A DNA stretch of 64,000 nucleotides, from assembly GCA_964016885.1 (NCBI GenBank), contig OZ024741.1, forward strand, positions 30,814,001 to 30,878,000. The letters run 5' to 3'. Below are positions 1,948 through 63,245 of this stretch, in pieces. The notes under the pieces were generated by a model that saw nothing but the letters and a program-made list of their open reading frames with translations, had not been told where the DNA came from and searched no databases. This stretch comes from Eledone cirrhosa. Its lineage: Eukaryota. How positions within the stretch are numbered: the stretch's first letter is position 1; each line of letters begins with the position of its first letter. Both the position numbers and the translations under genes were made by a program.

Positions 1948-2159
1948 ATATATATAAGTATGTATGCGTGCATACACATATGTATACAGACGTACAGTAG
2001 TATGTATATATATACATACATGCACACATATATATATATGTACGTATGGATTCACCGAACATTTATTATAATGCTCGGTGTGTTTGTAAACAAACATCCC
2101 GTATTAAGCCGTAGTGTCTAGCAACCATCGTTGGTCGTTTGTTCAACACTAACAAAGGT

Positions 2160-2202
2160 ACGCTGTACTAGTTTCAAGCTTATTAGCTATCGTCAGCAAC
2201 GT
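2160..2202 (-). ncRNA. minimal type I hammerhead ribozyme (family B)
   Basis: Minus strand: acgttg CTGACGA t-agct-aata-agct-t GAAA CTAG TA cagcgt. Stems I and II pair and loop III is palindromic. Confidence 0.8.
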
Positions 2203-2622
2203 GTACCTTCCTGTCAGATGATTGAACGTCTGAAAGTATATACTTTCCTTAAGCATATTAACGGCTGAGCAGCCTAATTTGCATATCGAGTGGGTTAATC
2301 GGCCGGGTACACCGAAAGCGATAAACGGAAAAAATGAAACGAAATTTCATTTCCCACTCTTAGAACGGCTGTTACTTAAATATAATTATGTATACGTACA
2401 TAGATATTTAAGTAACAGCCGTACTAAGAGTATACATACTTATATTTAAGTAACAGCCGTACTAAGAGTGGGAAATGAAATTTCGTTTCATTTTTTCCGT
2501 TTATCGTATTCGGTGCACCTGGCCGATTAACCCACTCGATATGCAAATTAGGCTGCTCAGCGGTTAATATGCATAAGGAAAGTATATACTTTCAGACGTT
2601 CAATCATCTGGCAGGAAGGTAC

Positions 2623-2665
2623 ATGTTGCTGACGATAGCTAATAAGCTTGAAACTAGAACAGCGT
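2623..2665 (+). ncRNA. family B hammerhead, mutated cleavage site
   Basis: atgttg CTGACGA ... GAAACTAG-AA-cagcgt: GUA changed to GAA, so predicted inactive. Confidence 0.65.
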
Positions 2666-2984
2666 TCCTTTGTTAGTGTTGAACAAACGAGCAACGATGG
2701 TTGCTAGACACTACGGCTTAATACGGGATGTTTGTTTACAAACACGCCGAGCATTATAATAAATGTTTGGTGAATCCATACGTACATATATATATGTGTG
2801 CATGTATGTATATATATATACATACTACTGTACGTCTGTATACATATATTAATGTATAAATACTTATATTTAAGTAACAGCCGTACTAAGAGTGGGAAAT
2901 GAAATTTCGTTTCATTTTTTCCGTTCATATATATATATGTACACATATATATATATATATATATATTTATGCATACATTCATAC

Positions 2985-6297: not shown

Positions 6298-9173
6298 CAG
6301 GAAAGAATTATAGCATTGATCAGGAAAGATAATACAGTTCATGAATGATAGTACTGTTCAGGAAATATAGTACTGTTCAGGAAAGATAGTACTGTTCAGG
6401 AAAGATAATACTATTCAGGAATGATAGTACTGTTCAGGAATGATAGTAATGTTCAGGAATGATAGTAGTGTTCAGGAAAGATAGTACTGTTCAGGAATGA
6501 TAGTACTGTTCAGGAATGATAGTACTGTTCAGGAATGATAGTACTGTTCAGGAATGATAGTACTGTTCAGGAAAGATAATACTGTTCAGGAAATACAATA
6601 CTGTTCAGGAAATATAATACTGTTCAGGAATGATAGTACTGTTCAGGAAAGATAATACTGTTCAGGAATGATAGTACTATTCAGGAATGATAATACTGTT
6701 CAGGAAATATAATACTGTTCAGGAAATACAATACTGTTCAGGAAATATAGTACTGTTCAGGAAAGATAGTACTGTTCAGGAATTATAGTACTGTTCAGGA
6801 ATGATAGTACTGTTCAGGAATGATAGTACTGTTCAGGAAATATAATACTGTTCAGGAATGATAGTACTGTTCAGGAATGATAGTACTGTTCAGGAATGAT
6901 AGTACTGTTCAGGAAAGATAATACTGTTCAGGAATGATAGTACTGTTCAGGAATGATAGTACTGTTCATGAAAGATAATACTGTTCAGGAATGATAGTAC
7001 TGTTCAGGAATGATAGCACTGTTCAGGAATGATAGTAGTGTTCAGGAATGATAGTAGTGTTCATGAAAGATAATACTGTTCAGGAATGATAGTACTGTTC
7101 AGGAATGATAGTACTGTTCAGGAATGATAGTACTGTTCAGGAATGATAGTACTGTTCAGGAATGATAGTACTGTTCAGGAAAGATAATACAGTTCAGGAA
7201 TGATAGTACTGTTCAGGAATGATAGTACTGTTCAGGAAATATAGTACTGTTCAGGAATGATAGTACTGTTCAGGAATGATAGTACTGTTCAGGAAAGATA
7301 ATACTGTTCAGGAATGATAGTACTGTTCAGGAAATATAATACTGTTCAAGAATGATAGTACTGTTCAGGAATGATAGTACTGTTCAGGAAAGATAATACA
7401 GTTCAGGAATGATAGTACTGTTCAGGAATGATAGTACTGTTCAGGAAATATAGTACTGTTCAGGAATGATAGTACTGTTCAGGAATGATAGTACTGTTCA
7501 GGAATGATAGTACTGTTCAGGAAAGATAATACTGTTCAAGAATGATAGTACTGTTCAGGAATGATAGTACTGTTCAGGAAAGATAATACTGTTCAGGAAT
7601 GATAGTACTGTTCAGGAAATATAATACTGTTCAAGAATGATAGTACTGTTCAGGAATGATAGTACTGTTCAGGAAAGATAATACAGTTCAGGAATGATAG
7701 TACTGTTCAGGAATGATAGTACTGTTCAGGAAATCTAGTACTGTTCAGGAATGTTAGTACTGTTCAGGAATGATAGTACTGTTCAGGAATGATAGTACTG
7801 TTCAGGAAAGATAATACTGTTCAGGAATGATAGTACTGTTCAGGAATGATAGTACTGTTCAGGAATGATAGTACTGTTCAGGAATGATAGTACTGTTCAG
7901 GAATGATAGTACTGTTCAGGAATGATAGTACTGTTCATGAAAGATAATACTGTTCAGGAATGATAGTACTCTTCAGGAATGATAGTACTGTTCAGGAATG
8001 ATAGTACTGTTCAGGAAATATAGTACTGTTCAGGAATGATAGTACTGTTCAGGAATGATAGTACTGTTCAGGAAATATAATACTGTTCAGGAATGATAGT
8101 ACTGTTCATGAATGATAGTACTGTTCAGAAAATGTAGTACTGTTCAGGAATGATAGTACTGTTCAGGAAAGATTGTACTGTTCAGGAATGATAGTACTGT
8201 TCAGGAAATATAGAACTGTTCAGGAATGATAGTACTGTTCAGGAAAGGTAATACTGTTCAGGAGTGATAGTACTGTTCAGGAAATATGGTACTGTTCAGG
8301 AATGATAATACTGTTCAGGAATGATAGTACTGTTCAGGAAATATAGTACTGTTCAGGAATGATAGTACTGTTCAGGAATTATAGTACTGTTCAGGAATGA
8401 TAGTACTGTTCAGGAATGATAGTACTGTTCAGAAAATATAGTACTGTTCCGAAATGATAGTACTGTTCAGGAAAGATTGTACTGTTCAGGAATGATAGTA
8501 CTGTTCAGGAAATATAGTACTGTTCAGGAATGATAGTACTGTTCAGGAAAGGTAATACTGTTCAGGAGTGATAGTACTGTTCAGGAAATATGGTACTGTT
8601 CAGGAATGATAATACTGTTCAGGAATGATAGTACTGTTCAGGAAATATAGTACTGTTCAGGAGTGATAGTACTGTTCAGGAATGATAGTACTGTTCAGGA
8701 AATATAGTACTGTTCAGGAATGATAGTACTGTTCAGGAATGATAGTACTGTTCAGGAAATATAGTACTGTTCAGGAATGATAGTACTGTTCAGGAATGAT
8801 AGTACACTTCAGGAAAGATAATACTGTTCAGGAATGATAGTACTGTTCAGGAAAGTTTGTACTGTTCAGGAATGATAGTACTGTTCAGGAAATATAGTAC
8901 TCTTCAGGAATGATAGTACTGTTCAGGAAAGTTTGTACTGTTCAGGAATGATAGTACTGTTCAGGAAAGTTTGTACTGTTCAGGAATGATAGTACTGTTC
9001 AGGAAATATAGTACTCTTCAGGAATGATAGTACTGTTCAGGAAAGATAATACTGTTCAGGAATGATAATACTGTTCAGGAATGATAGTACTGTTCAGGAA
9101 TGATAGTACTGTTCAGGAATGATAGTACTGTTCAGGAATGATAGTACTGTTCAGGAATGATAGTACTGCTCAG
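6298..9173. repeat. 19-bp minisatellite (CAGGAATGATAGTACTGTT), about 150 copies
   Basis: Direct reading. Variant units recur in blocks, e.g. the same variant series at 8247 and 8551 (304 bp = 16 units). Confidence 0.97.
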
Positions 9174-22331: not shown

Positions 22332-22374
<43 letters not shown>

Positions 22375-22378
<4 letters not shown>

Positions 22379-22611
22379 GGAAAATGAAACGAAATTTCAT
22401 TTCCCACTCTTAGTACGGCTGTTACTTAAATATAAGTATGTACACGTACATACATATATGTATACAGACGTACAGTAGTATGTATATATATATACATACA
22501 TGCACACATATATATATGCACGTATGGATTCACCGAACATTTATTATAATGCTCGGTGTGTTTGTAAAAAAACAAACATCCCGTATTAAACCGTAGTGTC
22601 CAGCAACCATC

Positions 22612-22612
<1 letters not shown>
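22375..22612 (-). mobile_element. partial family B unit (no HHR)
   Basis: Matches 2325-2395 joined to 1955-2130, i.e. it spans the unit junction. Confidence 0.85.
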
Positions 22613-22709
<97 letters not shown>

Positions 22710-25331: not shown

Positions 25332-28231
25332 GATGTCCTGGGTATGAGATTAAACTACATCCAGTGACAAGGCTCCAGTTAGGGAGTCCAGGAGTTGTGG
25401 GGAATGTGGAGTTACCTCTTAGTTGTCATAACTCCCAGGTCTGCTCTGGCCCGGAGTAGTAGTACCGGTTAGGGCTCCGCTTATGGGTTAAATAACTACC
25501 TTATTCGAGTGGCGCCGGTAAGGTATTGTCAGCCATTGAAAAGAAATATGGAGAGTCGAACTCACAGCACTAGGGTTAGAGCCCCTAATTACACTGTCAA
25601 GAAGCAGTATGGACGTTATGACACTGCTGGCTTAGAGCCACAGAGCGGGCCAGTGGATGATGGATCAGCATCTCTGAGACAAATATAAAGAATGCAGTTT
25701 TGTCCTGCAGAAGAGCCATGAAAATGGGCACTTTGAATGTGACGACTATTCGGACGCTGGAGAAGAGAGAGGAGTTGGGACATCTGTTCGAGGAGAGAGC
25801 TATACAGATACTTGCGATCCAAGAACACAAGATCCTAAACGATGAGCCCGTGAGGAGTGTGATGATTGGGATGAGGAGCCAGCTCATCATCCCATCAGGA
25901 GTCAGGAACATGACTAATGCTGCTTTGGGAGGAGTGGGTTTAGTTTTCAGCACAAAAACCAGTCTATTGATGAGGGAAATAATGCTTGTCTCCCCGAGAG
26001 TGTTGAGGGTGACCTTCAATGGAAATCTAAAACTGACAGTCATCTCAGCCTATGGTCCAACCGAGGAAGACAGTGGTGTGGATGCAGAAGAGTTCCATGA
26101 GGAAGTGTGTAAAGCTGTCAACACCACTCAAACACGCAACATCCTGCTTTTTGGGGGGACTTCAATGCACATCTGAGTAAGGAGGGCAGTGAAGAGCCTT
26201 GCTGGTACTTCCATAACAACACCAACCAAAATGGAAGACTACTGAGAGACACCCTGCTGGAGGCGAACTTGATAGCGACCAACCTAGGGTTTAGGGAGAA
26301 TCTGGGGAAGATGTGGACCTACATCTCAGATATGCACCTGTCCATGTCCCAGATTGATTTCATTCTGGTGAGGAAAAATAGGCGGAATAGAGTTCAGAAC
26401 AAAGAACCATACAACTATTTCAGTACACTGGGTAGTGACCACCTTCTTGTTATGTGTGAGGTCCGGGTGAGCTTAAGAAAGTCAAGGCTGAGCCCCGGAG
26501 AGCAATCTATGACCGGGGAGCTTTCAAGGAAGATGATAAGCTACAGGAGAGGTTCACAGTGGAAGTGAGGAACAGGTTCAGTGCTCTGTGTGGAGAGAGA
26601 TAGGAGAGAAAGATTGGATGTACTGAGGAGAGTGTGACAAGGAGGTCCGGGCACTTCACCAATGCAGTGGCGGAAGCAAGTGAAACCCTGGTGCCGAGGA
26701 AAAGGAACAAAAGGAAGCACATCAGCTCTGCAAACCCAAAAGTGTGTGCAGCCAGAGAACACCTGAAAGCTGCCAAGGACCAATTCTATGCTGATCCTAC
26801 GGAGGTGATGAGGGAAGAACTCTGTACCGCTTAGACTGAGGCCAGAGAGGAGGCACTGATAGAGAAGATCAGAAGTGTGGAGAGAGCGGTTGACAGATCT
26901 GGATGTAGGGAGAGCTGGATGATCATCAACAAGATCACAGGGAGGAAGAGATGGTGTTCGAGTCAGATCCAGGGAACGGGGCCCGAGGATAGGAAAAGGA
27001 AATGGCTAGACCATTTTAGGACTCTCCACATCCCAGAGCACTGGGGAGATAAGGCGGCTGTTTGAGGAACTGGATATTGAGACAGAGCCCTTCACCAGAG
27101 AGGAGCTTCAGAGAGCCAAGAAGAGGATCGAGGAGGGTAGGGCTCATTGAGAAGATGGAGTGACATCAGAGGTGATGAAGAGGTGTGATTTTGATGATAT
27201 TACCCTGGGGTTCTGTAACCAGGCACTGGAGAAAGGAGTTGCCCCGAATCAGTGGAGGATCAGTAACATCGTTCCAGTGCCAAGAAAAGGGAGATCTCTC
27301 TAACACCAACAACTACAGGGGGATATCACTGACGTCACTTGTGGCAAAGACCCTCATCAGAATGATTCTTAACAGGATCCAGCCTGAGATGGAGAAGAAG
27401 CTCAGGGACAACCAGAACGGCTTCAGAGCAAGATCAACCACCAGTCACATCCTGATGCTGAGGAGGATATTAGAGGGAGCTAGAGCAAAGTGCCTTCCTG
27501 CGGTCATGGTTTTCATTGACTTTAGGAAGGCCTTTGATTCTGTGGACCGTCACTGCTTGATGAAGATCTTACAGCCTTATGGAATCCCCAAGAAGATAGT
27601 GGACCTGATATCACCGCTCTACACCAACACCAAAGCCCAAGTCATTACACCTGATGGGATGACAGAGTTCTTTTAGATACTGGCTGGAGTGCTCCAGGGA
27701 GATACATTGGCTCCCTACCTTTTTATCAACGTAGTGGACTATTGTATGCCCCTTGCACTGGAGAAACACCAGGACTCTGGCTTTACTGTAGCACCGGCTC
27801 AGAGCAGGAGATAAGGCGAAAAAGGTATCAGATGCTGAATTTGCCGACGACATAGTTTTGGTGACAAATACAGTGAAGGAGGCAGAGGATTTGATGCAGG
27901 AGGTTGAGACTGTGTCGATGAGTGTGGGTCTGAGAATGAATGAGACCAAAACAAAATATCTTGTAGAGAATGTTGAGAAGCCAGAGGGGATTAATAATGT
28001 AGGCGGGATGCCGCTGGAATTGGTTGAGAACTTCCTGTATATGGGAGCAAAGATTGGGAATACAGAAAATGATGTGGTTGAGAGGAAGCGCAAAGCCTGG
28101 GCGGCGTGCCACAGTTTGAGATCGCTGTGGAAGTCAAACCTTCGTAAAGACCTGAAAATCCGCCTCTTCATTGTTGTAGTGGAGTCTGTGCTGCTGTATG
28201 GGTCTGAGACTTGGACACTGACTAAGAAACT
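25332..28231 (+). mobile_element. RTE-clade LINE: 5'UTR, APE endonuclease and RT (pseudogenised)
   Basis: [73 protein letters not shown]. Multiple stops and frameshifts. Confidence 0.93.
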
Positions 28232-28234
28232 ATG

Positions 28235-28388
<154 letters not shown>

Positions 28389-29596
28389 AAGAATGAATAA
28401 TAATAGGTAGACATCATAAAAAGGTAATTTATTCCGTGTGCTTACAAGTGTTTCCACGGTGGTCCTGCAGCCTAGTTATGCTACGTGCAAATTCACAAGT
28501 ACTTGCAGAACTCGAATATCCAATGCTGTGACCACTGTTTCCTCAGAGCAGAATGGTAAATGTACAATGTAAATACCCTTAAGTGGGGTTGTTGGGGAAG
28601 ATAGAGTAGAAAAGGAAGAGAGAAAAGTAGGGAAGAGGGAGAGAGAAAGAAAGATATGCAGGGGTTGGAGAAGTAGGAGAGAGTGGCTTGTAGATATCTT
28701 AATCAAAATGTTATGGCAGGGGTTTTATTATACTGGTTACTTTTGGAAAGATGCGTTGATAGTTAAGGTCGGAATTATTTATTGCCCCAGAGGGCAGGTT
28801 CATAGATGTTGAGAGGGAGGTAGGTCAAAGGTGAGAGAGAGAGAGAGAGTGTAATGGATGTAGAGAGAGATAGGTAGAGAGGAGACAGACAAAGTATGTG
28901 TGGTGAGTGAACTTTGGGTTTGTAGTGGTAATCTAGGAATTGCACTGAGTTACCATGTATAGTGATAAGCAGTGTATTGTCTTGTAGTGTGGGGGGGAAG
29001 AGAAGGTTGTTAGCTAGAAAGTGGTGTTATAGTTACGGGTTCGAATGTTAAGTTATTTTATAGTGAGAGAATTTAGCTTTTAGTTTGTGGTTGCAGTATA
29101 ATGATCGTTCAATTCTATCGTTAAGTAGTTAGTTTTGGGATTTTAATATGTAAAAGAGCTCAAGGTTACATAACCTGCAGTACTTCAATCCACTCCGATA
29201 TGCACTTGCGCTGGAAAGTATATCCCATTTTAAGGTGAACTGTTGGTTGTGTTCACGGAGTTGCCAGGTCTTGTTGGTGAGCGTGGTCACAAAACGGTGA
29301 TTCGGATGTTTGATTGAGAATCGATGACGGTACCAGCGAGATTTAAACGATGTGGTGGTAGATCCGATATAATACCATTTCTGGTCGTTCGATTCAACCG
29401 TGCATTGGTAAACAATGTTGGACTTTAGGCATTTATTCTTCAATGGACATCTTTCAGGTAGATGGCAGTTACATTCGTTGTTGTGGGTAGCGGGTATACC
29501 ATGGATAGGTTGTGATAGCGGTACAGGTGGGTTGTGTAATACCTGTCTCCCATTTAGTGGTTGGGAGGCAGATATTGCGTTCTGCCCATCTGTATA

Positions 29597-30259
29597 TACA
29601 GCAAAATTCTGAACTCTAAAACTATTAGACTATCATACTCCACGGCACCAAACCTTGAAGCATACATAAAAAAACTTGACTCAAGGCAATTAAACAACTC
29701 TACAAAACAAAACATTTTAGTAACAGATGGGCAGAACGCAATATCTGCCTCCCAACCACTAAATGGGAGACGGGTATTACACAACCCACCTGTACCGCTA
29801 TCACAACCTATCCATGGTATACCCGCTACCCACAACAACGAATGTAACTGCCATCTACCTGAAAGATGTCCATTGAAGAATGAATGCCTAAAGTCCAACA
29901 TTGTTTACTTTGAATCGAACGACCAGAAATGGTATTATATCGGATCTACCACCACATCGTTTAAATCTCGCTGGTACCGTCATCGATTCTCAATCAAACA
30001 TCCGAATCACCGTTTTGTGACCACGCTCGCCAACAAGACCTGGCAACTCCGTGAACACAACCAACAGTTCACCTTAAAATGGGATATACTTTCCAGCGCA
30101 AGTGCATATCGGTGTGGATTGAAGTACTGCAGGTTATGTAACCTTGAGCTCTTTTACATATTAAAATCCCAAAACAAACTACTTAACGATAGAATTGAAC
30201 GATCATTATACTGCAACCACAAACTAAAAGCTAAATTCTCTCACTATAAAATAACTTAA
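29597..30259 (+). pseudogene. PLE GIY-YIG endonuclease domain (C-terminal fragment)
   Basis: KILNSKTIRLSYS, CNCHLPERCPLKNEC, NIVY...YYIG, FKSRWYRH, CRLCNLE, LLNDR, CNH. Confidence 0.88.
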
Positions 30260-30753
30260 CATTCGAACCCGTAACTATAACACCACTTTCTAGCTAACAA
30301 CCTTCTCTTCCCCCCACACTACAAGACAATACACTGCTTATCACTATACATGGTAACTCAGTGCAATTCCTAGATTACCACTACAAACCCAAAGTTCACT
30401 CACCACACATACTTTGTCTGTCTCCTCTCTACCTATCTCTCTCTACATCCATTACACTCTCTCTCTCTCTCACCTTTGACCTACCTCCCTCTCAACATCT
30501 ATGAACCTGCCCTCTGGGGCAATAAATAATTCCGACCTTAACTATCAACGCATCTTTCCAAAAGTAACCAGTATAATAAAACCCCTGCCATAACATTTTG
30601 ATTAAGATATCTACAAGCCACTCTCTCCTACTTCTCCAACCCCTGCATATCTTTCTTTCTCTCTCCCTCTTCCCTACTTTTCTCTCTTCCTTTTCTACTC
30701 TATCTTCCCCAACAACCCCACTTAAGGGTATTTACATTGTACATTTACCATTC

Positions 30754-30865
30754 TGCTCTGAGGAAACAGTGGTCACAGCATTGGATATTCGAGTTCTGCA
30801 AGTACTTGTGAATTTGCACGTAGCATAACTAGGCTGCAGGACCACCGTGGAAACACTTGTAAGCA
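30754..30865 (+). ncRNA. type I hammerhead with enlarged (85-nt) stem II domain
   Basis: tgct CTGAGGA a-acagtggtc...gaccaccgt-g GAAA C-actt-G TA agca. Matching mirror copy at 28439-28550 on the minus strand. Confidence 0.7.
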
Positions 30866-31058
30866 CACGGAATAAATTACCTTTTTATGATGTCTACCTG
30901 TTATTATTCATTCTTTATATACACTCCGGAATACTGAAGGATCAGGAACTAAGTTTCTTGAACAATTCTTCCATAACTCGTAGAGTAACCTCTTACCGTA
31001 CGTCAACCATATCCAGTGTAGTAATTAACCATTACTACATCTTGGATAATCCCATACC

Positions 31059-35689: not shown

Positions 35690-35877
35690 AACGAAGGAAG
35701 TGTGGTAAGGAACCAGATGGACAATAACTCACCTGAGTACTAAATACTTAGCGTAGTAGAGTGGATAATAAGAAACAGTTTAACCCCGACGGCAGAGCTC
35801 AAGCCGTTTCGATGGCTATTTCTGAAATCGCAGTCGAAACGGCTTGAGCTCTGCCGTCGGGGTTAAACTTTTTCCTA
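35690..35877 (-). mobile_element. family A fold-back element
   Basis: Homologous to 22123-22331. Palindrome ccccgacggcagagctcaagccgtttcga...tcgaaacggcttgagctctgccgtcgggg. Confidence 0.8.
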
Positions 35878-35894
35878 TATATATATATATATAT

Positions 35895-36720
35895 ATAAAT
35901 ATAAGTATGTATACGTACATACATATATGTATACAGACGTACAGTAGTATGTATATATATATATATATATACATACATGCACACATATATATATATATAT
36001 ATATGTACGTATGGATTCACCGAACATTTATTATAATGCTCGGTTTGTTTGTAAACAAACATCCCGAATTAAAGCCGTACAGTGTTTAGCAACCATCGTT
36101 GCCCTTTTGTTCAACACTGACAAAGGAACGATGTACTAGTTTCAAGCTTATTAGCTATCGTCAGCACCGTGTACCTTCCTGCCAGATGATTGAAAGTCTG
36201 AAAGTATATACTTTCCTTATGCATATTAACGGCTGAGCAGCCACATTTGCATATCGAGTGAGTTAATCGGATGGGCGCACCGAAAACGATAAATGGAAAA
36301 AATGAAAAAATGAAAAAATGAAACGAAATTTCATTTCTCACTCACTCTTAGTACGGCTGTTACTTAAATATAAGTATGTATACGTACATATATGTATACA
36401 GACGTACAGTGGTATGTATATATATACATACATGCACACATATATATATATGTACGTATGGATTCACTGACAAAGGAACGATGTACTAGTCTCAAGCTTA
36501 TTAGCTATTGTCAGCACCGTATACCTTCCTGCCAGATGATTCAACGTCTGAAAATAACAGCCGTACTAAGAGTGTGTGAGAAATGAAATTTCGTTTCATT
36601 TTTTCATTTTTTCATTTTTTCATTTTTTCATTTTTTCATTTTTTCATTTTTTCATTTTTTCATTTTTTCATTTTTTCATTTTTTCATTTTTTCATTTTTT
36701 TCATTTTTTCCATTTTCATA
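35895..36720 (-). mobile_element. family B, about 1.4 antisense units plus short inverted part ending in (CATTTTTT)n
   Basis: Homology to 1945-2395. Intact HHR at 36128-36170 and a mutated one at 36478-36520. Confidence 0.85.
36128..36170 (-). ncRNA. family B hammerhead
   Basis: Minus strand: acggtg CTGACGA tagctaataagctt GAAA CTAG TA catcgt. Stem I differs on both strands from the other copies yet still pairs. Confidence 0.8.
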
Positions 36721-41495: not shown

Positions 41496-43336
41496 ACACA
41501 CACACACACATACACATACACACACAGTCACACATACACACACATATATATATATATATATACGATATTAACACATGGAAACTATATTTATAAAACCATA
41601 TTTATTTCATTATACATATTTCAAGGATACCAAGTTAAATTATGGTATGCCTTCATCAGACAAAATACAATATATACCAGTTTTATAAATAAAGATTGAC
41701 GTACCATTTCAAAATGCGACCGTTACTTTTGGAAGACATCAGGATAGTGGTTTGTTTATTTTAGTAAGTTGTTGTGTTAAGGATAAGTAAAAAGACGGAG
41801 AGAGAGAGAGAAACGTGGAGAAAAGAAAGGGAGAGATAAATAAAGAAAAAGAGGAAAGAAAAAAGAAAAAAGAAAAAAGAAAAAAGAAAAAAGAAAAAAG
41901 AAAAAAAGAAAAAAGAAAAAAGAAAAAAGAAAAAAGAAAAAAAGAAAAAAGAAAAAAGAAAAAAGTAAAAAGAAAAAAAGAAAAAAGAAAAAAAGAAAAC
42001 AGAGGAAAACAACATAGAGATATGAAACCACCAGACAGAGAGAAAAAACTCAAGAGAGAGAAATATAGAGATAGAGAGAGGGGGAGAGAACGAAAACCTT
42101 AAGTCATGTCATATTAAGTTGAGTTAAGATGAAATGAATAAATAAAATTAGAAATATTAATATTCATGAATGGAATATACATATATAATATGAGAAATTA
42201 ATCATTGTTTAATTATGATTAAATATTTAGTTTAAAAATTGAGATCAATATATTAAAAATTGGAATTTAAACATTACAAAATATATATATGGCTAGAGAA
42301 ATTACCTATCGTATAGCACGTAGATATAGGCAAAGATACATAAATATATATATATATACACATACACTCAGAAAATACACATTATATCTACTCCCGCATA
42401 TAATATATACATACAAAGCATAAGTGATTTTTTTTATTACTGCTATACATTCCTTGTGTTATTAAATAAACATTTTTAGTATATATATATAAATATATAG
42501 GATTAACTTTCTTGCATTTATGGCTGTTAAATTATGTATATCTGCAATCAAAACTGCATGGGTAAGCATGTACATGTACACACACAATTCTTAGATATAC
42601 ATATATAAATATGTGTGTGCATCTTCCCCCAATTGGTAGACACGCGTCACTCATGCATATATACAGACAGACATATACTCATAAAAAAGCATATAACACA
42701 TGCATATGTATGTTAATACACATATATAGATACATAGTCGTATAGAGATAAGTATACATCAATATATTACATAGTACAATTGAGTATATAAAATACAAAA
42801 GAATTATATTTTGGAAATATAATTATATCAATATAAGACAAACGAATTCTACAAATATAAAAATATTAAAATATTTTAAAATATTATAGAATATTTTAAG
42901 TTAAAATAAATAATATGTTTAATAGTATAAAAATTTACCTTACGTATATTTTAATCAAGATATTGAAGGATACACTTTTGAAAATTATGAGAAGCTATCA
43001 GAATAAAAACAACCTAATAAAAAATAAATAAAATATTATATCAATATAACTTAAAAAACAAGGATTCTACAGATATTAAAATATTTTAAAATATTATAGA
43101 ATATTTTAAGCTAAAATAATATGTTTAATATATTTAGTATAGACATTTATCTTACGCATATTTTATTCAAGATATTGAAAGGATAAACTTTTCTAGAATA
43201 GTTTATTATATTTATATTTATATTTAGGAAGAAAATTTATACTTGAGTACTTAACCAAAGAAAATGAAAAAGGTGAAGGAATCTAATGATTTATCGACAG
43301 GTTTCATATATTAACCAAATTACTTAATTAATTATA

Positions 43337-45310
43337 CTACATTTTAAATTTATATTTATATTTAAACGTTGAGTTCAATCTATGTCTGCAGCAACTGAAT
43401 AAATTACTCCTTAAATTAAGGGAATTTTTGGTCTTTAATATAAAGAGTATTTCCTCTATACAAAGATCACAATTTTCTGAAGAGGAATTAAAAGGAGTAG
43501 CTTTTGAAATAATATTCCAAATCAGCGAATATTCAACATTATCTCGTTTTAGGTCCCATAATAGGCTAGATAGCGAAGTTGAAGATTTTTTGTTTGGATC
43601 TGTAAAATAATTGTTATGATTATTGAAGCGGGATTTAAATTCTGTAGAGGTAGAACTGACATAATTAAATGAATTTAAATTAGTTTTAACATTACAATTA
43701 TAAACTATATTTTTAGCTAAGCAGTTGTTATTTAACGGACAGTTGGATTTATTTCTACAGTTACAATTATTCGATTGAATATTGTTTGGGTTATTATTGG
43801 TATTTTGGTTAGGTTTTAAATTTCTATTATTAGTTCTATTAATATTTTGCGCCAAATTTTTGGTGGAAGAGTAAGTTAATTTTATAGTATGTCTATTAAA
43901 AATTCAGTAATATCTATGTGTTCTAGGGAAGCGTTTGTCAAGAGCTTTAAAGTGTAGTTTAGCAATAGGGGTTTTAATATTTAGTGAGAAAGGAGGAGCG
44001 AACCATAATATATTCCTAGTTCTATTTCTTTTTCGGCTTTCGGAATTATTGTAATGTTTTCTATTATAGTTGTTAAAATTGTTACCATAATTAAAGTTGT
44101 TATTATTTTGGTTAGTTTGTATATTATTATTATTATCGATGTATTTAATTTTATTTCTATACCCAGCTCTACCTAACGCTTCGTTGTAATAATGCGCTTT
44201 TTCTTCAAATATATTCTTATTAGATGAAATTCTTGAAATTCGTTCTTGAACAGAGTTCACTATAGTATTTTTAACGGATCTGGGGTGATTAGAGTTAAAA
44301 TTGACATAATTTAACTTCTCATTTAGTTTGTGAAATGGATAATGAAGACATGTGTTGAGATTTAATGTTACATCTAGAAAATTGACTATTTTATGGTTAT
44401 TCTCTATTTCTACATTTAGATTAATGTAATTAAAAAATTGTATAATTTGTTTTCTTTTTCTATTTAGTTCACAGCTATTATTTTCTATAAGTAAAAGCAT
44501 GTCGTCACGATATAAGCCTCCGGTTACACCTGGTATTTTTCTATGTAGAGAATTAATTATAAATAGGCCCACAAGGTCCGTTACCTGAGCTGAGTTATGT
44601 CGAAATTATTGTTTCTATCAGCCCTAGTCCAGAGTTGGTTATTAAATTCTATTAATGTTTTTCGTGCCGATAATATAATGTGCATTTCATTGCTAGTTAG
44701 GTCTGTATGTTTAAATGCGTAAGTTAGTGCCTTATTCAGTAGATTAGGAGTGATAGATGAGTAGTAGTTAGCAATATCCAACTGAATAAACTTATTATTA
44801 TAGTTATATTTAATTTCTTTAAACCAATTGATAACCTCACTAGTCCCTTTCCATAATTTTAAGTGAGATAAATTAGGTAAATTCTTAATTTGTTGTATTA
44901 TTCTGTCTAGAATATTTTTGCTAAGTCTGCCCAGGTCAGATTTAGATGGTGCAATTAATCTGACTAGTAAATCATTTTCAAAGTTTCTTTTATGATCCTT
45001 CATATTAATCTTAGGTTTCCTTGGCATGAAGGGTTGTGTTTTATTTTCAATGTCTAGTTCATGCATTATACAAGAGGCATCTTTATTCAGTTTTTCAATT
45101 CGTCCTTATTTGCTACTTTGTATTTCTTCCTGAGTTACTTCAATATAAGGTCGTTATAAATGTCCTTTTGTATTCCGTAAAGATTATTAGTTTTGTCCGA
45201 CTCGACTAGAATTTTCTCCGTTTTCTCCAAGTTTTTAATATTATCCTTAATATCTCTTAAGTAATCTTGGCCTTTGAAGTTGTTTTTGAATTTGATGCTT
45301 TGGATGATAA
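43337..45310 (-). pseudogene. PLE reverse transcriptase plus GIY-YIG endonuclease (disrupted, 5'-truncated)
   Basis: SDKTNNLY, KDHK.NF, RLIAPSKSDLGR, LDIANYYSSI, FDITQ (following GSxxG deleted, frameshift), GLYRDD, NFLDVTL, SNHP, WFAPPFS, IFNRHTIKLTYS, CNCR..CPL..C, IVY..YVS, CDLC, CRH. Confidence 0.92.
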
Positions 45311-47122
45311 AAATATTCTTTATATTAAAGACCAAAATTTCCCTTAATTTAAGGCATAATTTATTCAGTTGCTGCAGACATAGATTGAACTCAACGTTTA
45401 AATATAAATATAAATTTAAAATCTAGTATAATTAATTAAGTAATTTGGTTAATATATAAAACCTGTCGATAAATCATTAGATTCCTTCACCTTTTTCATT
45501 TTCTTTGGTTAAGTACTCAAGTATAAATTGTCTTCCTAAATATAAATATAAATATAATAAACTATTCTAGAAAGGTTTATCCTTTCAATATCTTGAATAA
45601 AATATACGTAAGATATATTTCTATACTAAATATATTAAACATATTATTTTAGCTTAAAATATTCTATAATATTTTAAAATATTTTAATATGTTGATAAGT
45701 GTAGAATCCTTGTTTTTTAAGTTATATTGATATAATATTTTATTTATTTTTTATTAGGTTGTTTTTATTCTGATAGCTTCTCATAATTTTCAAAAGTTTA
45801 TCCTTCAATATCTTGATTAAAATATACATAAGATAAATGTCTATACTAAATCTATTAAACATATTATTTTAACTTAAAATATTCTATATTTTAAAATATT
45901 TTAATATTTTGATATTTGTAGAATTCGTTTGTCTTTTAAGTTATATTGATATAATTATATTTCCAAAATATAATCCTTTTGTATTTTATATACTCACTTG
46001 TACTATGTAATATATTGATGTATACTTATCTCTATACGACTATGTATCTATATATGTGTATTAACATACATATACATGTGTTATATGCTTTTTTATGAGT
46101 ATATGTCTGTCTGTATATATGCATGAGTGACGCGTGTCTACCAATTGGGTGAATATGCACACACATATTTATATATGTATATCTAAGAATTGTGTGTGTA
46201 CATGTACATGCTTACCCATGCAGTTTTGATTGCAGATATACATAATTTAACAGCCATAAATGCATGAAAGTTAATCCTATATATTTATATATATATACTA
46301 AAAATGTTTATTTAATAACACAAGGAATGTATAGAAGTAATAAAAAAAATCACTTATGCTTTGTATGTATATATTATATGCGGGAGTAGATATAATGTTT
46401 ATTTTTTTAGTGTGTGTGTATATATATATATTTATGTATCTTTGCCTATATGTACGTGCTATACGATAGGTGATTTCTCTAGCAATATATATATTTTGTA
46501 ATGTTTAAATTCCAATTTTTAATATATTGATCTCAATTTTTAAACTAAATATCTAATCATAATTAAACAATGATTAATTTCTCATATTATATATGTATAT
46601 TCCATTCATGAATATTAATATTTCTAATTTTATGTATTCATTTCATCTCAATTGTTAACTCAACAATATGACATGACTTAAGATTTTCGTTCTCTCCCCC
46701 TCTCTCTATCTCTATATTTCTCTCTCTTGAGTTTTTTCTCTCTGTCTGGTGGTTTCATATCTCTCTGTTGTTTTCCTCTGTTTTCTTTTTTTTTCTTTTT
46801 TTTCTTCTTTTTTTCTTCTTTTTTTCTTCTTTTTTTCTTTTTTTTTCTTTTTTCTTTTTCTTTTTTCTTTTTTCTTTTTCTTTTTTTCTTCTTTTTTCTT
46901 TTTTTTTTCTTTTTCTTTTTTCCCTTTTTCTTTTTTCTTTCCTCTTTTTCTTTATTTATCTCGCCCTTTCTTTTCTCTACGTTTCTCTCTCTCCGTCTTT
47001 TTACTTATCCTTAACACAACGACTTACTAAAATAACAAACCACTATCCTGATGTCTTCCAAAAGTAACGGTCGCATTTTGAAATGGTACGTCAATGTTTA
47101 TTTATAAAACTGGTATATATTG

Positions 47123-47181
47123 TATTATGTCTGATGAAGCCATACCATAATTTAACTTGGTATCCTTGAAATATGTATAAT
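47123..47181 (+). ncRNA. hammerhead-like motif at the PLE 3' end (imperfect stem I)
   Basis: CTGATGA agccatacca taatttaact tggtatcctt GAAA tatg TA. The mirror copy at about 41609-41667 has aggcatacca. Stem I pairing is not convincing. Confidence 0.5.
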
Positions 47182-47304
47182 GAAATAAATATGGTTTTAT
47201 AAATATAGTTTCCATCGTATATCTACTCCAAATACTTGTCGAGTGCTTTATATCAGTTATAAAAATATTTGCTTGTTGTATCCCAACAATTTAAATAGAA
47301 CTTT

Positions 47305-47544
<240 letters not shown>

Positions 47545-49771: not shown

Positions 49772-50015
49772 CAACCATTTTATCTGTTTAACATTAAGCG
49801 ATATAATCTTTGCATTCGTGAGTTTTATATCGAATAATAATATTCGATTCATATACAAGAAAACAGCCTCATTCCGCTGTGTTTTAGATGACCATCGCCC
49901 TAAGAAAAAAACAACTGTCACTGCTAGAACAAAGGATGATGATGGTTGTCTAAAACACATAGATCATTGAGGCTGTGTGCTTGCAAACGAATCGCATATC
50001 ATTATTATTCTATAT

Positions 50016-50612
50016 GGGCGGTGGATTGGCAGTATTGGTAGAGGGTCGGACGCCATGCTTTGACACATTGAGTTACGGCCCTTGCCATTCTGAGTTCAAA
50101 TCCCGCCGAGGTTAACTTTGCCTATCATGCCTACGGGGTCGATAAAATAAAGTAACAGTAATGCACTGGGTAATTGCTGGCCTTGTGCCAAAAGTAGAAA
50201 CAATTATTATTCTATATGGGCGGTGTATTGGCAGTATTGGTAGAGGGTCGGACGCCATGCTTTACAGCAACGAGTTACCACCCTTTATCGTCTGAGTTCA
50301 AATCTCGCCGAGGTTAACTTTGTCTTTCATCCTTGCGGGGTCGATAAAATAAAAGTACCAGTAATACACTGGGATAATTGCTGACCTTTTGGCAAAAGTA
50401 GAAACAATCATTATTCTATATGGGTGGTGTATTGGCAGTATCGGTAGAGGGTCGGACGCCATGCTTTACAGCAAAGAGTTACGGCCCTTTATGGTCTGAG
50501 TTCAAATCACGCCTAGGTTAACTTTGCCTTTCATCCTTGCGGGATCGATATAATAAAGTACCAGTAATGCACTGGAATAATTGCTGGCCTTGTGCCAAAA
50601 GTAGGACCATCA
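50016..50612 (+). mobile_element. three tandem full-length SINE family 1 copies (period about 203 bp)
   Basis: Heads at 50016, 50218 and 50422, each preceded by attattctatat. Confidence 0.92.
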
Positions 50613-51616
50613 TTATTATTCAATATGAAGCTCAAGAATGAATTTCCATATCCGCTATGTTAAAGCAAAACTAATTTTGCTTTTGATATAATCTTTAAAA
50701 ATTTAAAACATATTTTAAATTTGCTTTACAATTTCGTATACACCTTTCATGTTTAAATATCTTAAATAATTTATTTGTTAATGTTTATTAACAAGAATTT
50801 GTATGATATAATTACTAAATACTTTTTCTTTAATTTATATATCATTAGAGCTATTCCGATATCAACAATTACTCACTAGAAGATGACAATAATTAAGTTT
50901 CTGATTATAGTAATGCTATAGCTGTTAAGTATTCTCAATTTATTAACCTACATTTCATTAAACGTAAATCCTACAATTCTTCCTCATCTAATAACCCGAT
51001 AATTCTCATTAAACTGTTGTGATGATTTTGATGATAATAATATAAATAATCACTAACTACTCTGTCTCCTTTTAATTCATTCACTAATTCATTGAGAAAT
51101 TTATTTATCTTCGTATGTACTCATTTAATTATCTATTTTCACACATATTTTTCGTTTACTTCCCTTGATATTTTGTGCTTTGATTATAAATTTTCTGTTC
51201 TTTAAATACTTTTTCTCCTATTTTCATTAAATTGAAATTAAACAGATAATCTCAATATAATGGTTAAGTATTTTCCTCTGAATGATGGTGATAATAGTAA
51301 CATGGGTGATGTATTTTATGATGCTGACGACGACGATGATTTTAGCTACACAAATTATTACTAACTTACAAACTGCTCTTAAACGTATGTATCACATTTT
51401 TATTTAAATATTTTATTTATATAATTATTTCATGTAAAGTCGTCTGCTCTCCTGTATCCTCTCTCCATCATCTCTCTTTTCATCTCTGTATCTTTCTGAA
51501 AGTAGATAACCAGTTATAATTAAATTACTTTGGCAGGCCTTTCTTTATTTCAACAAATTTATCAACGAACAGAAGTGTACAATAAAGAATATATTTCTAT
51601 AGAGTGTTACAGTAAT

Positions 51617-60032: not shown

Positions 60033-60257
<225 letters not shown>

Positions 60258-60855
60258 TTAGTACGGCTGTTACTTAAATATAAGTATGTATACGTACATA
60301 CATATATGTATACAGAGGTACAGTAGTATGTATATATATACATACATGCACACCTATATATATATGTACGTATTAATTCACCGAACATTTATTATAATGC
60401 TCGGTCTGTTTGTATCAAATATCCCGCATTAAGCCGTACAGTGTCTAGCAACCATCGTTGCTCATTTGTTAAACACTGACAAAGGAACGCTGTACAATTT
60501 TCAAGTTTATTAGCTATCGTCAGCAACGTATACCTTCCTGCCAGATGATTGAACGTCTGAAAGTATATACTTTCCTTATGCATATTAACGGCTGAGCAGG
60601 CTAATTTGCATATCGAATGAGTTAATCGGCCAGGCCCACCGAAAACGATAAGCGGAAAAAATGAAACGAAATTTCATTTCTCACTCTTAGTACGGCTGGT
60701 ACTTAAATATAACTATGTATACGTACATACATATATGTATACAGACGTACATAGATATATGTATACACTCGATATGCAATTTAGGCTGTTCAGCCGTTAA
60801 TATGCATAAGGAAATTATATACTTTCAGACGTTCAATCATCTGGCAAGAAGGCAT

Positions 60856-60898
60856 ACGTTGCTGACGATAGCTAATAAGCTTGAAACTAGTACAGTGT
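60856..60898 (+). ncRNA. family B hammerhead
   Basis: acgttg CTGACGA tagctaataagctt GAAA CTAG TA cagtgt. Confidence 0.78.
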
Positions 60899-61281
60899 TC
60901 CTTTGTCAGTGTTGAACAAATGAGCAACGATTGTTGCTTGACACTGTACGGCTTAATTCGGTATGTTTGTTTACAAACACACCGAGCATTATAATAAATG
61001 TTCGGTGAATCCATACGTACATATATGTGTGTGCATGTATATATATATATACATACTACTGTACCTCTGTATACATATATGTATGTACGTATACATACTT
61101 ATATTTAAATAACAGCCGTACTAAGAGTCAGTAATGACATTTCGTTTCATTTTTTCCGTTTATCGTTTTCGGTGCGCCCGGCCGATTAACTCACTCGATA
61201 TGCAATTTAGGCTGCTCATCCGTTAATATGCATAAGGAAAGTATATACTTTCAGACGTTCAATCATCTGGCAGGAAGGTAT

Positions 61282-61324
61282 ACGCTGCTGACGATAGCTA
61301 ATAAGCTTGAAACTAGTACAGCGT
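61282..61324 (+). ncRNA. family B hammerhead (best copy)
   Basis: acgctg CTGACGA t-agct-aata-agct-t GAAA CTAG TA cagcgt, with a perfect 6-bp stem I. Predicted cleavage after 61318. Confidence 0.87.
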
Positions 61325-61431
61325 TCCTTTGTCAGTGTTGAACAAATGAGTAATGATGGTTGCTAGACATTGTACGGCTTAATTCGGGATGTTTGTTTAC
61401 AAACACACCGAGCATTATATATATATATATA

Positions 61432-61862: not shown

Positions 61863-62010
61863 TAGGAACGAGTAGGACCCCGACGGCTGAGCTCAAGCCG
61901 TTTCGACGGCTAATTCTGGACTACTCGTTCCTATTACCCACTCTACTACCCTAAGTATTGAGTACTTTGGTGCGTTATGGTCCACTTGGTTCCTTACCAC
62001 ATTTCCTCCG

Positions 62011-62012
<2 letters not shown>
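61863..62012 (+). mobile_element. family A element with internal deletion
   Basis: Nearly identical to 1640-1841 but lacking the second palindrome arm (the equivalent of about 1698-1749). Confidence 0.85.
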
Positions 62013-62054
<42 letters not shown>

Positions 62055-62128
62055 ACTTAATACCTACTGGAATATCTATATCATTTATATATATATATAT
62101 ATATATATATAGCCTGACATATATATAT

Positions 62129-63245
62129 AGAAGCCTGACATTCGCAGCAAACGGGGCCCTCTCAAAGGAAACATCAATAACAAGTGGGGTGCCCCAAGGG
62201 ACAGTCCTGGGACCACTACTTCTTTTGGTGGTTCTCTCAGACATGACATCTGTAGTACTTACAACAACATCCCTCACTAGCTATGCTGATGACACTAAGG
62301 TAGCACAAGCTATAAAGAACCCGTCTGACGCTGCCCTTTTACAACAAGATCTGGATGCCATAAACAAATGGGCGGAAGAAAACAACATGCAGTTTAATGC
62401 TGGCAAATTCCAAGCCCTTCAATACAAATCTGAAAACACAAATTTGGTACAACACAGTTACGCAGGACTAGGAGGGACCGATATCCCCGTGTCAAAATCG
62501 ATACAAGACCTGGGTATAGACTTTAGCGATGATGCATCTTTTTGCTCACACATCATGAAAGTGGGGACAATGTGCAGACGACTCGCTGGCTGGATCTTGA
62601 GGACTTTTTGGACAAGAGACCGAGACACTATGTTGACACTATGGAGGACATTTGTCCTAAGCCGCCGGGACTATTGCTCCCAGTTGTGGTCACCCCATAG
62701 TGTCAAACTAACCACGGAGCTTGAGGCAATCCAGCGAAGCTACACCAAGAGGATTGCCACGATGAAGGAGATAAACTACTGGGAGAGGCTAAAAGAACTG
62801 AACCTCTACTCCTTGGAACGAAGACGGGAGTGATACGCAGTGATCTACATGTGGAAAATCCTGGAGGGACTAGCACCAAACTTTGGCATTAGGAGCTGGA
62901 CCAACCTTCGAACAGGACTTCACTGTGTGGTGCCAAAGGTGCCGTCTTCCACATGTAGAATAAGTAGCAGATATCGTAATAGTCTGGGATTCAAGGGCCC
63001 TCAACTCTTCAACAAGCTGCCGAGGTGTGGAGGTGGATGTCTTCAAGAAACATCTCGAAACCTTGCTATCCAGGATCCCGGATGAGCCCACAGCAAGGCA
63101 CGCGGGAAACCTAAGGGCAGCAGCAACAAACTCCCGCTTACACCAGTGGTCAACCAATGAAGCTGGAGATAAAATGTGTAGCAACAAGAGGGGTGCCCAG
63201 CATGGGCTCAGCCGGATGGCTGGAAGAGGTAATTGAGTAAAAGAG

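What the first reader, a model, noticed from the sequence alone, without database searches (positions are those of the whole stretch)
60258..61419. Family B: a 426-nt non-coding, hammerhead-bearing, retrozyme-like element
Seen: four loci (1945, 22375, 35895, 60258) carry tandem or inverted copies of a 426-bp unit with no ORF. Each full unit has a minimal type I hammerhead (CUGACGA / 4-bp stem II / GAAA-CUAG-UA). One stem I pair varies among copies as C-G (61282), U-G (2160) and G-U (36128), always keeping pairing. Insertions end at different points of the unit and read through the cleavage site, so they are circular permutations. Established: minimal HHRs with palindromic loop III cleave as dimers, and animal non-LTR retrozymes are tandem HHR units yielding small circular RNAs thought to be mobilised by Penelope-like RTs. 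Inference: this is a cephalopod retrozyme/circRNA family parasitising the local PLEs. I cannot tell whether it has been described.
Basis: partly seen in the sequence, partly recalled or inferred. Interest (0 to 1): 0.88.

Follow-up and report, generated by a model that had tools for sequence, protein, structure and literature searches.

The report
Penelope-mobilised hammerhead retrozyme family
This is one copy of an abundant non-coding repeat carrying a predicted self-cutting RNA motif, and its mirror-image insertions end at two fixed sites, which suggests that Penelope-type jumping-gene enzymes likely copy it into DNA, possibly but not demonstrably from an RNA circle.

Summary
The 426-bp unit and its type I hammerhead are real: 5,424 exact cores genome-wide, 26,654 with sister subfamilies, arrays of over 40 units, and compensatory changes in helices I and II. 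The ribozyme is canonical (axolotl-like), not 'minimal'. 5' ends vary, but 142 of 164 3' ends fall at two sites about 55 nt apart, mostly in (TA)n. In head-to-head pairs one arm uses each site (31 of 32). That matches the Penelope 'tail at one end only', and 2 of 3 coding Penelope pairs checked here show it too. No coding partner was found (0 of 50 GIY-YIG loci). Copies read through the cut site with no pile-up there, so cut linear monomers are not the main template. Circle versus uncut multimer is unresolved: most insertions are uniform, some hold two haplotypes. Expression, cleavage and circles are untested, and the host taxon was not tested. Verdict: a new member of the known metazoan non-LTR retrozymes, with good genomic evidence for the proposed Penelope route. 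The scan reported the same pattern earlier on other DNA of this genome.

The parts
60766..61419 (+). Plus arm of the focal head-to-head insertion, 1.5 units (unit positions u300 through to u101; u1 = 60893), ending in a short (TA)n
60257..60765 (-). Minus arm of the focal insertion, 1.2 units (u156 through to u233), joined 5'-to-5' with the plus arm at 60765/60766
60893..61318 (+). One full 426-nt unit between two predicted cleavage sites (predicted monomer)
   Evidence: fold z -5.4 linear, -5.5 circular
61267..61335 (+). Type I hammerhead motif: helix I 61282-61287/61319-61324 with outer extension, core 61288-61294, U.U then helix II 61296-61307, GAAA, palindromic CUAG, predicted cut after 61318
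60841..60909 (+). Second hammerhead motif, predicted cut after 60892; the tandem partner needed for dimer cleavage
60476..60544 (-). Decayed hammerhead copy (mutated helix II and helix III), likely inactive
61104..61163 (+). 'Tail': stretch between the two family-wide 3' end sites A (about u212-220) and B (about u268-271); holds a predicted hairpin; inferred reverse-transcription start sites
   Evidence: hairpin in the folds of the L062, L162, L154 and L236 units
61197..61212 (+). Block kept even in the 65%-identical relative L162 (octamer-like ATGCAAAT in most copies); role unexplained
   Evidence: U2 promoter comparison negative
1949..2928 (.). Head-to-head pair with the typical ends: minus arm at site A, plus arm at site B, both in (TA)n
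22373..22613 (-). 5'-truncated single arm (u35-u271), site B end in (TA)n, no ribozyme
35892..36618 (.). Head-to-head pair: minus arm ends at site A; short plus arm runs into an expanded 8-bp repeat near site B; G-U variant of the helix I pair

Best explanation
This is a non-coding tandem element of about 426 nt with a predicted dimer-cleaving type I hammerhead ribozyme, whose copies end at two fixed sites in (TA)n and which is likely copied into DNA in trans by a Penelope-like RT-endonuclease. Shown: the unit, the hammerhead motif and its covariation, the two fixed 3' ends, their one-per-arm use in head-to-head pairs, variable 5' ends, and a common source for both arms. Inferred: tandem copies are transcribed; the Penelope protein binds the tail region, nicks both strands of a (TA)n tract, and primes reverse transcription at site A from one nick and at site B from the other; both cDNAs run through the uncut or religated ribozyme site, stop at variable points and are joined 5'-to-5'. 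Some arrays later grow by DNA-level duplication of dimer blocks. Untested: transcription, self-cleavage (expected weak as monomer, stronger as dimer) and circles. The template is at least sometimes longer than one monomer; I put circular RNA as a main template at about 0.4.
For: 3' ends: 76 at site B and 66 at site A of 164 arms; 132 of 164 within 13 positions; 125 of 142 A/B ends in (TA)4 or longer. Pairs: A+B 31, B+B 1, A+A 0 of 32 pairs with both ends at A or B (p 8e-9). The 65%-identical relative L162 keeps the same A+B pair. Positive control: 2 of 3 coding Penelope pairs have a tail on one arm only (L258, about 50 nt; window family A); one has equal ends. PMC8557442 describes inverted 5'-truncated copies, a tail at one end and (TA)n bias; PMC11167929 shows both strands cut and extended and the tail lying between two RT start sites. 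Common source: diagnostic sites agree 486/541 between arms and 330/373 within arms, against 7777/14036 for random pairs. Ribozyme: 91.5% of cells paired, 7 of 23 pairs changed on both sides, 0/500 shuffles, slid controls 30-45%. PMC7229834 shows axolotl ribozymes with a 1-bp helix III and palindromic tetraloop, or a U.U at the base of helix II, that cleave well as dimers.
Against: No coding partner found: 0 of 50 GIY-YIG loci, out of 10,595 first-look candidates, carry the unit as their terminal repeat. The focal locus itself lacks both typical ends. Rfam has no hammerhead match, and 3 of 4 isolated 66-nt motifs fold no better than shuffles. Much of the two-sided covariation comes from one relative (L162) and one pair, and related copies inflate the shuffle test. 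No strand-biased A-to-G editing scar: 81/8063 against T-to-C 65/8607, p 0.096. The sample is biased to young copies close to the window's subfamily. In PMC11167929 the Penelope hammerhead was not needed for insertion and cut only with protein present.
Confidence: 0.82

Rival explanations
1. Same element and same Penelope machinery, but the template is an uncut linear multimer transcribed from genomic arrays. The hammerhead is weak or incidental to copying, and circles play no part.
For: 25 of 147 diagnostic sites covered by three or more passes are mixed; rare alleles there are partial 18 against all-shared 3. 6 of 44 within-arm comparisons differ at two or more diagnostic sites. In L065 the short arm shares two derived alleles with alternate units of the long arm only. 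PMC11167929 found unprocessed RNA the dominant substrate for an anole Penelope in vitro.
Against: 122 of 147 such sites are uniform, and young multi-unit insertions are nearly identical throughout (L139 0 differences in 483 bases, L114 2 in 838, L146-147 one informative site over about 10 units). The ribozyme fold is kept across subfamilies down to 65% identity, so it is under selection for something. Mosaics could also come from dimeric circles, template switches or later gene conversion.
Confidence: 0.45
2. The copies are only 5'-truncated terminal repeats (pseudo-LTRs) of a coding Penelope element, not a family in their own right.
For: Same ends, inversions and targets as coding Penelope elements. 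The 2026 preprint links retrozymes to pseudo-LTRs. Only 50 of at least 10,595 endonuclease candidates were examined.
Against: 88 of 164 arms are longer than one unit and 131 of 164 read through the cut site head to tail; arrays reach 21 kb. No recurrent outside sequence is seen at the 5' junctions of 57 unpaired arms (by eye). Three cases with an endonuclease nearby were read or mapped as separate insertions (L254, L242, L217).
Confidence: 0.07
3. A satellite or fold-back DNA element that spreads at the DNA level, with a chance or fossil ribozyme-like motif.
For: Long arrays with higher-order periods exist. No editing scar. No Rfam match.
Against: Fixed 3' ends with variable 5' ends are the polarity of target-primed reverse transcription. 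The A+B pairing and the helix covariation have no DNA-level explanation that I can name.
Confidence: 0.04

Closest known systems
Metazoan non-LTR retrozymes (coral, Mytilus, axolotl, newt; Cervera and de la Pena 2020, PMC7229834: passages and sections 15 and 17 read, supplement unreadable)
   Same: Non-coding tandem units, low GC, canonical type I hammerhead, thousands of copies, stable predicted circle fold, Penelope elements in the same genome. Helix III as in axolotl HHR_Amex1; U.U at the base of helix II as in HHR_Amex2.
   Different: Unit of 426-500 nt, a little above the 170-400 nt RNAs reported there; both weak features sit in one ribozyme. Penelope mobilisation is proposed there from co-occurrence; here the insertion ends carry the signature. 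Circles are shown there and untested here.
Vertebrate non-LTR retrozymes as non-autonomous Penelope derivatives (Li, Clavereau, Pollet 2026, 10.64898/2026.07.22.740005: parts 1-3 of 5 read, supplements closed)
   Same: Same class and the same proposed parent.
   Different: Their evidence is co-occurrence and homology to pseudo-LTRs; the parts read do not analyse insertion ends. Here no homologous coding element was found. Only 1 of their 9 dimers cleaved in vitro, so cleavage here cannot be assumed.
Coding Penelope-like elements with GIY-YIG endonuclease (PMC8557442: passages and section 15; PMC11167929: parts 1-2 of 4; PMC4209133: part 1 of 4)
   Same: 5' truncation, partial tandems, inverted 5'-truncated arm, tail on one end, (TA)n targets, type I hammerhead, two RT start sites.
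   Different: No ORF; unit about a tenth of the size; tail about 55 nt rather than 30-40; canonical rather than minimal hammerhead.
Non-autonomous Chlamys elements such as MRC1 (PMC8557442, passage)
   Same: Non-coding Penelope dependants forming pseudo-LTRs and multicopy head-to-tail insertions.
   Different: Those resemble their autonomous families at the 3' end, and most Chlamys lack hammerheads; here no partner is identified.

Membership tests
Metazoan non-LTR retrozyme | Short tandem units of a few hundred bp, dimers to multimers | tested here: met
   426-428 nt period, array of 21 kb, many dimers and trimers
Metazoan non-LTR retrozyme | Type I hammerhead in each unit | tested here: met
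   Core 96-100% conserved per position in about 180 sampled copies, part of them chosen by the core; helix covariation; Rfam models give no match
Metazoan non-LTR retrozyme | No coding capacity | tested here: met
   Longest ATG ORF 44-133 aa in six tripled units; too short for an RT; not scanned against Pfam
Metazoan non-LTR retrozyme | No LTRs, PBS or PPT; GC under 50% | tested here: inconclusive
   No LTR layout in 164 arms and the unit is AT-rich; PBS and PPT were not searched
Metazoan non-LTR retrozyme | Self-cleavage, as monomer or dimer | not testable with these tools
   Bench assay needed; no 5' pile-up at the cut site in genomic copies
Metazoan non-LTR retrozyme | Expressed as linear and circular monomer RNA | not testable with these tools
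   No RNA holder listed; this is no evidence either way
Penelope-mobilised element | Fixed 3' ends with a tail on one end only; variable 5' ends; inverted arm | tested here: met
   142 of 164 ends at two sites; 31 of 32 pairs A+B
Penelope-mobilised element | Microsatellite target bias | tested here: met
   125 of 142 A/B ends in (TA)4 or longer
Penelope-mobilised element | Sequence shared with an autonomous partner | tested here: inconclusive
   None in 50 of at least 10,595 endonuclease candidates
Autonomous Penelope-like element | RT plus GIY-YIG ORF between pseudo-LTRs | tested here: not met
   Units join head to tail with no ORF
Minimal (PLE-type) hammerhead, PMC4209133 | Helix II 7-8 bp, helix I 4-5 bp, poorly defined loop 1 | tested here: not met
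   Helix II 4 bp, helix I 6 bp plus a conserved extension
Rfam hammerhead families | Covariance-model match | tested here: not met
   None at E up to 10 on 240 bases; none among the 150 best of 260 window matches shown

The most novel reading that the evidence does not exclude
A Penelope RT dimer loads on one small hammerhead-made RNA circle (monomer or dimer), primes from both strands of a (TA)n break at two fixed sites 55 nt apart, and rolls round it to write two opposed multi-unit arms. That would be a genomic record of the rolling-circle reverse-transcription step that has been proposed for animal retrozymes but is not shown in the papers read here.
Probability: 0.35. Interest if true: 0.75.

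Novelty: new member of a known kind. Interest (0 to 1): 0.45.

Why it matters
Which enzyme moves animal retrozymes, and from what RNA, is an open question: the papers read propose Penelope elements from co-occurrence and homology. This family carries the Penelope insertion signature itself and gives exact predicted start sites (about u215 and u271) and a one-site-per-strand rule. These can be tested with the in vitro assay already published for an anole Penelope. With some 26,000 ribozyme cores it is also a sizeable part of this genome's repeats. The class itself is not new.

Tried and rejected
Cut linear monomers as templates: no 5' pile-up at the cut site. 2 ends at u422-u4 against 2.9 expected in 111 arms; genome-wide junction-like counts are 32 at u1 and 54 at the control u404. 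No baseline count was run for each 24-mer, so this comparison is rough.

A transcription start or RT stop at u393-397: it looked enriched in the sample, but the genome-wide count is 63 against 54 for the control. Dropped.

snRNA-type promoter (the newt satellite parallel is recalled; search gave no passage that I read): 4 U2 loci examined have no octamer in 1.5 kb upstream, and the two aligned show no match above shuffles (20-111 of 200 as good).

RNA-editing scars (lead from e1-8803865): p 0.096 for strand bias. A-to-G is 11 of 56 shared against 31 of 367 unique variants (p 0.015), but 4 of the 11 are at two recurrent sites. Inconclusive.

Partner hunt: the relaxed pattern gave 258 hits, mostly sister subfamilies; L151, L223 and L224 are chance matches without helix I. 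50 GIY-YIG loci were negative.

Sequencing runs: no RNA holder listed. Three low-depth runs of other labelled organisms cover only 61198-61419 with the same few haplotypes; unexplained and not used.

Target-site duplications could not be read in (TA)n. The first unmasked self-BLAST drowned in microsatellites. One alignment had a stray one-base row; one search replaced it.

Full report
Observation. The unit between two predicted cuts is window 60893-61318 (426 nt; u1-u426). BLAST of the doubled unit finds four insertions in the window: 1949-2448(-)/2430-2928(+), 22373-22613(-), 35892-36556(-)/36552-36618(+) and the focal 60257-60765(-)/60766-61419(+). The genome is 3.0 Gb in 1,796 contigs. It holds 5,424 exact copies of the 35-nt core with 0 for the reversed control, 9,619 of a 30-mer from another part of the unit, and 26,654 of a relaxed core that also catches sister subfamilies with periods up to about 500 nt. 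One array spans 21 kb. The longest ATG ORF in six tripled units is 44-133 aa. The host taxon was not tested.

The ribozyme. The motif has a 6-bp helix I with an internal loop and an outer extension, CUGACGA, a U.U pair, a 4-bp helix II, GAAA, a palindromic CUAG loop and a GUA cut triplet. One helix I pair takes five standard pair types in 165 of 169 copies. An alignment of 23 motifs (22 distinct), including relatives at about 75% and one at 65% identity, has 91.5% of cells paired, 7 of 23 pairs changed on both sides, 0 of 500 shuffles as high and slid controls at 30-45%. Much of this rests on one relative (L162) and one pair, and 18 of the 23 rows were chosen by their core. The U.U is the family norm: all 100 listed hits have it, and only 258 cores have another base at the first position. 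By PMC4209133 (part 1 of 4 read) this is a canonical, not a minimal, type I motif. PMC7229834 (section 15) describes an axolotl ribozyme with a 1-bp helix III and palindromic tetraloop and another with a U.U at the base of helix II; both cut poorly as monomers and well as dimers. Against: Rfam finds no hammerhead here, and 3 of 4 isolated motifs fold no better than shuffles. Whole units fold well as circles, z -2.2 to -11.2 on 25 shuffles each, partly because of self-complementary (TA)-rich runs.

Insertion ends. I mapped 164 non-redundant arms from the loci and the window; arms touching a locus edge were dropped, and the sample leans to young copies like the window's. Their 3' ends are 76 at site B (u256-280), 66 at site A (u203-225) and 22 elsewhere; 69 lie at u268-271 and 63 at u212-220, and 125 of the 142 A/B ends are in (TA)4 or longer. 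The 5' ends are spread round the unit. Of 52 head-to-head pairs, 9 were dropped as palindrome overlaps or duplicates. The other 43 are A+B 31, B+B 1, A+A 0, one typical end 10 and neither 1 (p 8e-9 for 31 of 32). The 'neither' pair is the focal locus, which also has the most private changes of the insertions listed; later deletion or priming at another TA-rich spot could explain it. The 65%-identical relative L162 (470-nt unit) has the same A+B pair. Among coding Penelope pairs, L258 and window family A have one longer arm, and the pair at 28.4-30.9 kb has equal ends. PMC8557442 (passages, section 15) lists inverted 5'-truncated copies, a tail at one end and (TA)n bias as Penelope traits. PMC11167929 (parts 1-2 of 4) shows in vitro that both strands are cut and extended and that the tail lies between two RT start sites. 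I infer one start site per nicked strand.

Template. Both arms come from one source: diagnostic sites agree 486/541 between arms and 330/373 within arms, against 7777/14036 at random. 131 of 164 arms read through the cut site, and 5' ends do not pile up there, so cut linear monomers are not the main template. For a single monomer circle: 122 of 147 diagnostic sites with three or more passes are uniform, and several young multi-unit insertions are nearly identical. Against it: 25 of 147 are mixed; within-arm discordance at diagnostic sites is 37 of 427 against a background of 222 of 8,515 at non-CpG sites; 6 of 44 comparisons are clear mosaics; and in L065 the short arm shares derived alleles with alternate units only. 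L065 and L053 also show perfect dimer periods that look like later DNA duplication. Circle, dimeric circle, template switching and linear multimer are not separated. An editing test was inconclusive. No RNA run was listed.

Partner. GIY-YIG endonuclease matches are plentiful (10,595 candidates, 150 scored), and the window holds two such elements (the Neptune-like label rests on a cysteine linker and is recalled, not tested by a tree). None of 50 loci examined has the unit as its terminal repeat; three nearby cases are separate insertions. One coding family has a hammerhead with a U.U at helix II and a palindromic loop, but a different sequence and tail.

What is known. Non-LTR retrozymes are described in coral, mussel and salamanders, with Penelope elements proposed as the mobiliser (PMC7229834: passages, sections 15 and 17; its supplement could not be read and may list more species). 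A 2026 preprint argues they are non-autonomous Penelope derivatives (parts 1-3 of 5; supplements closed). A giant squid paper counts 235 Rfam hammerhead loci without further analysis (passage). An Octopus vulgaris repeat paper has no occurrence of 'ribozyme' in its main text (passages). Seven searches listed no paper on this family or on paired ends in retrozymes; the library lacks most subscription papers, and Dfam and Repbase could not be searched. The scan's earlier notes report the same two-armed pattern in this genome, one for a 422-nt unit with a 59-nt offset that is probably this family. I had the A+B result before reading them, and they are not independent support.

Verdict. A new member of a known class, with a clear genomic Penelope signature and an open question on the circle. 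Interest 0.45.

Noticed in passing
window 41572-47308: Decayed coding Penelope-like element (RT and endonuclease frames at 43337-45422, minus strand) in a head-to-head layout, with its own long-helix-II hammerhead at 41659(-) and 47131(+); one arm has a longer tail.
   Followed up: partly
window 28389-30900: Head-to-head pair of a 5'-truncated Penelope-like element with GIY-YIG in both arms and a possible hammerhead with a very long helix II insert, seen by eye; both arms end at the same site.
   Followed up: partly
L162:1270-2735 (G000:C1:163.575 Mb): Young 470-nt sister family, about 65% identical, with a standard G-C pair closing helix II and the same two-end layout.
   Followed up: partly
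L246, L247, L252, L258: Coding Penelope family with a compact hammerhead (U.U at the base of helix II, GUAC palindrome) about 400 nt after the ORF; L258 is an inverted pair with a tail of about 50 nt on one arm.
   Followed up: partly
window 61197-61212 and L162:1833-1848: Octamer-like block kept between families that are otherwise 65% alike; no match to the U2 promoter here; role unknown.
   Followed up: partly
runs X4, X5, X6: Three low-depth runs of differently labelled organisms hold the same few haplotypes, all starting at 61198; could be relatives, contamination or filtering.
   Followed up: no
L243:4307-7121, L244:3486-6018, L245:2773-6061: Open frames of 938, 844 and 1,096 codons that include a GIY-YIG match; possible intact Penelope elements for an in vitro partner test.
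   Followed up: no
G000:C3:307.35-307.45 Mb: Tandem array of about 40 U2 snRNA genes with a 2.2-kb period; no octamer upstream in the two loci examined.
   Followed up: no
window 6305-9173 and 50004-50617: A 19-bp minisatellite of 2.9 kb and a 204-bp three-copy tandem repeat.
   Followed up: no
window 60136-60215, 61473-61580/61740-61845, 35772-35875: Other short inverted repeats next to (TA)n that look like ends of further Penelope-type families.
   Followed up: no
window 26113-28400 and 61955-62833: LINE-like reverse-transcriptase fragments (Pfam RVT_1 and endonuclease hits).
   Followed up: no
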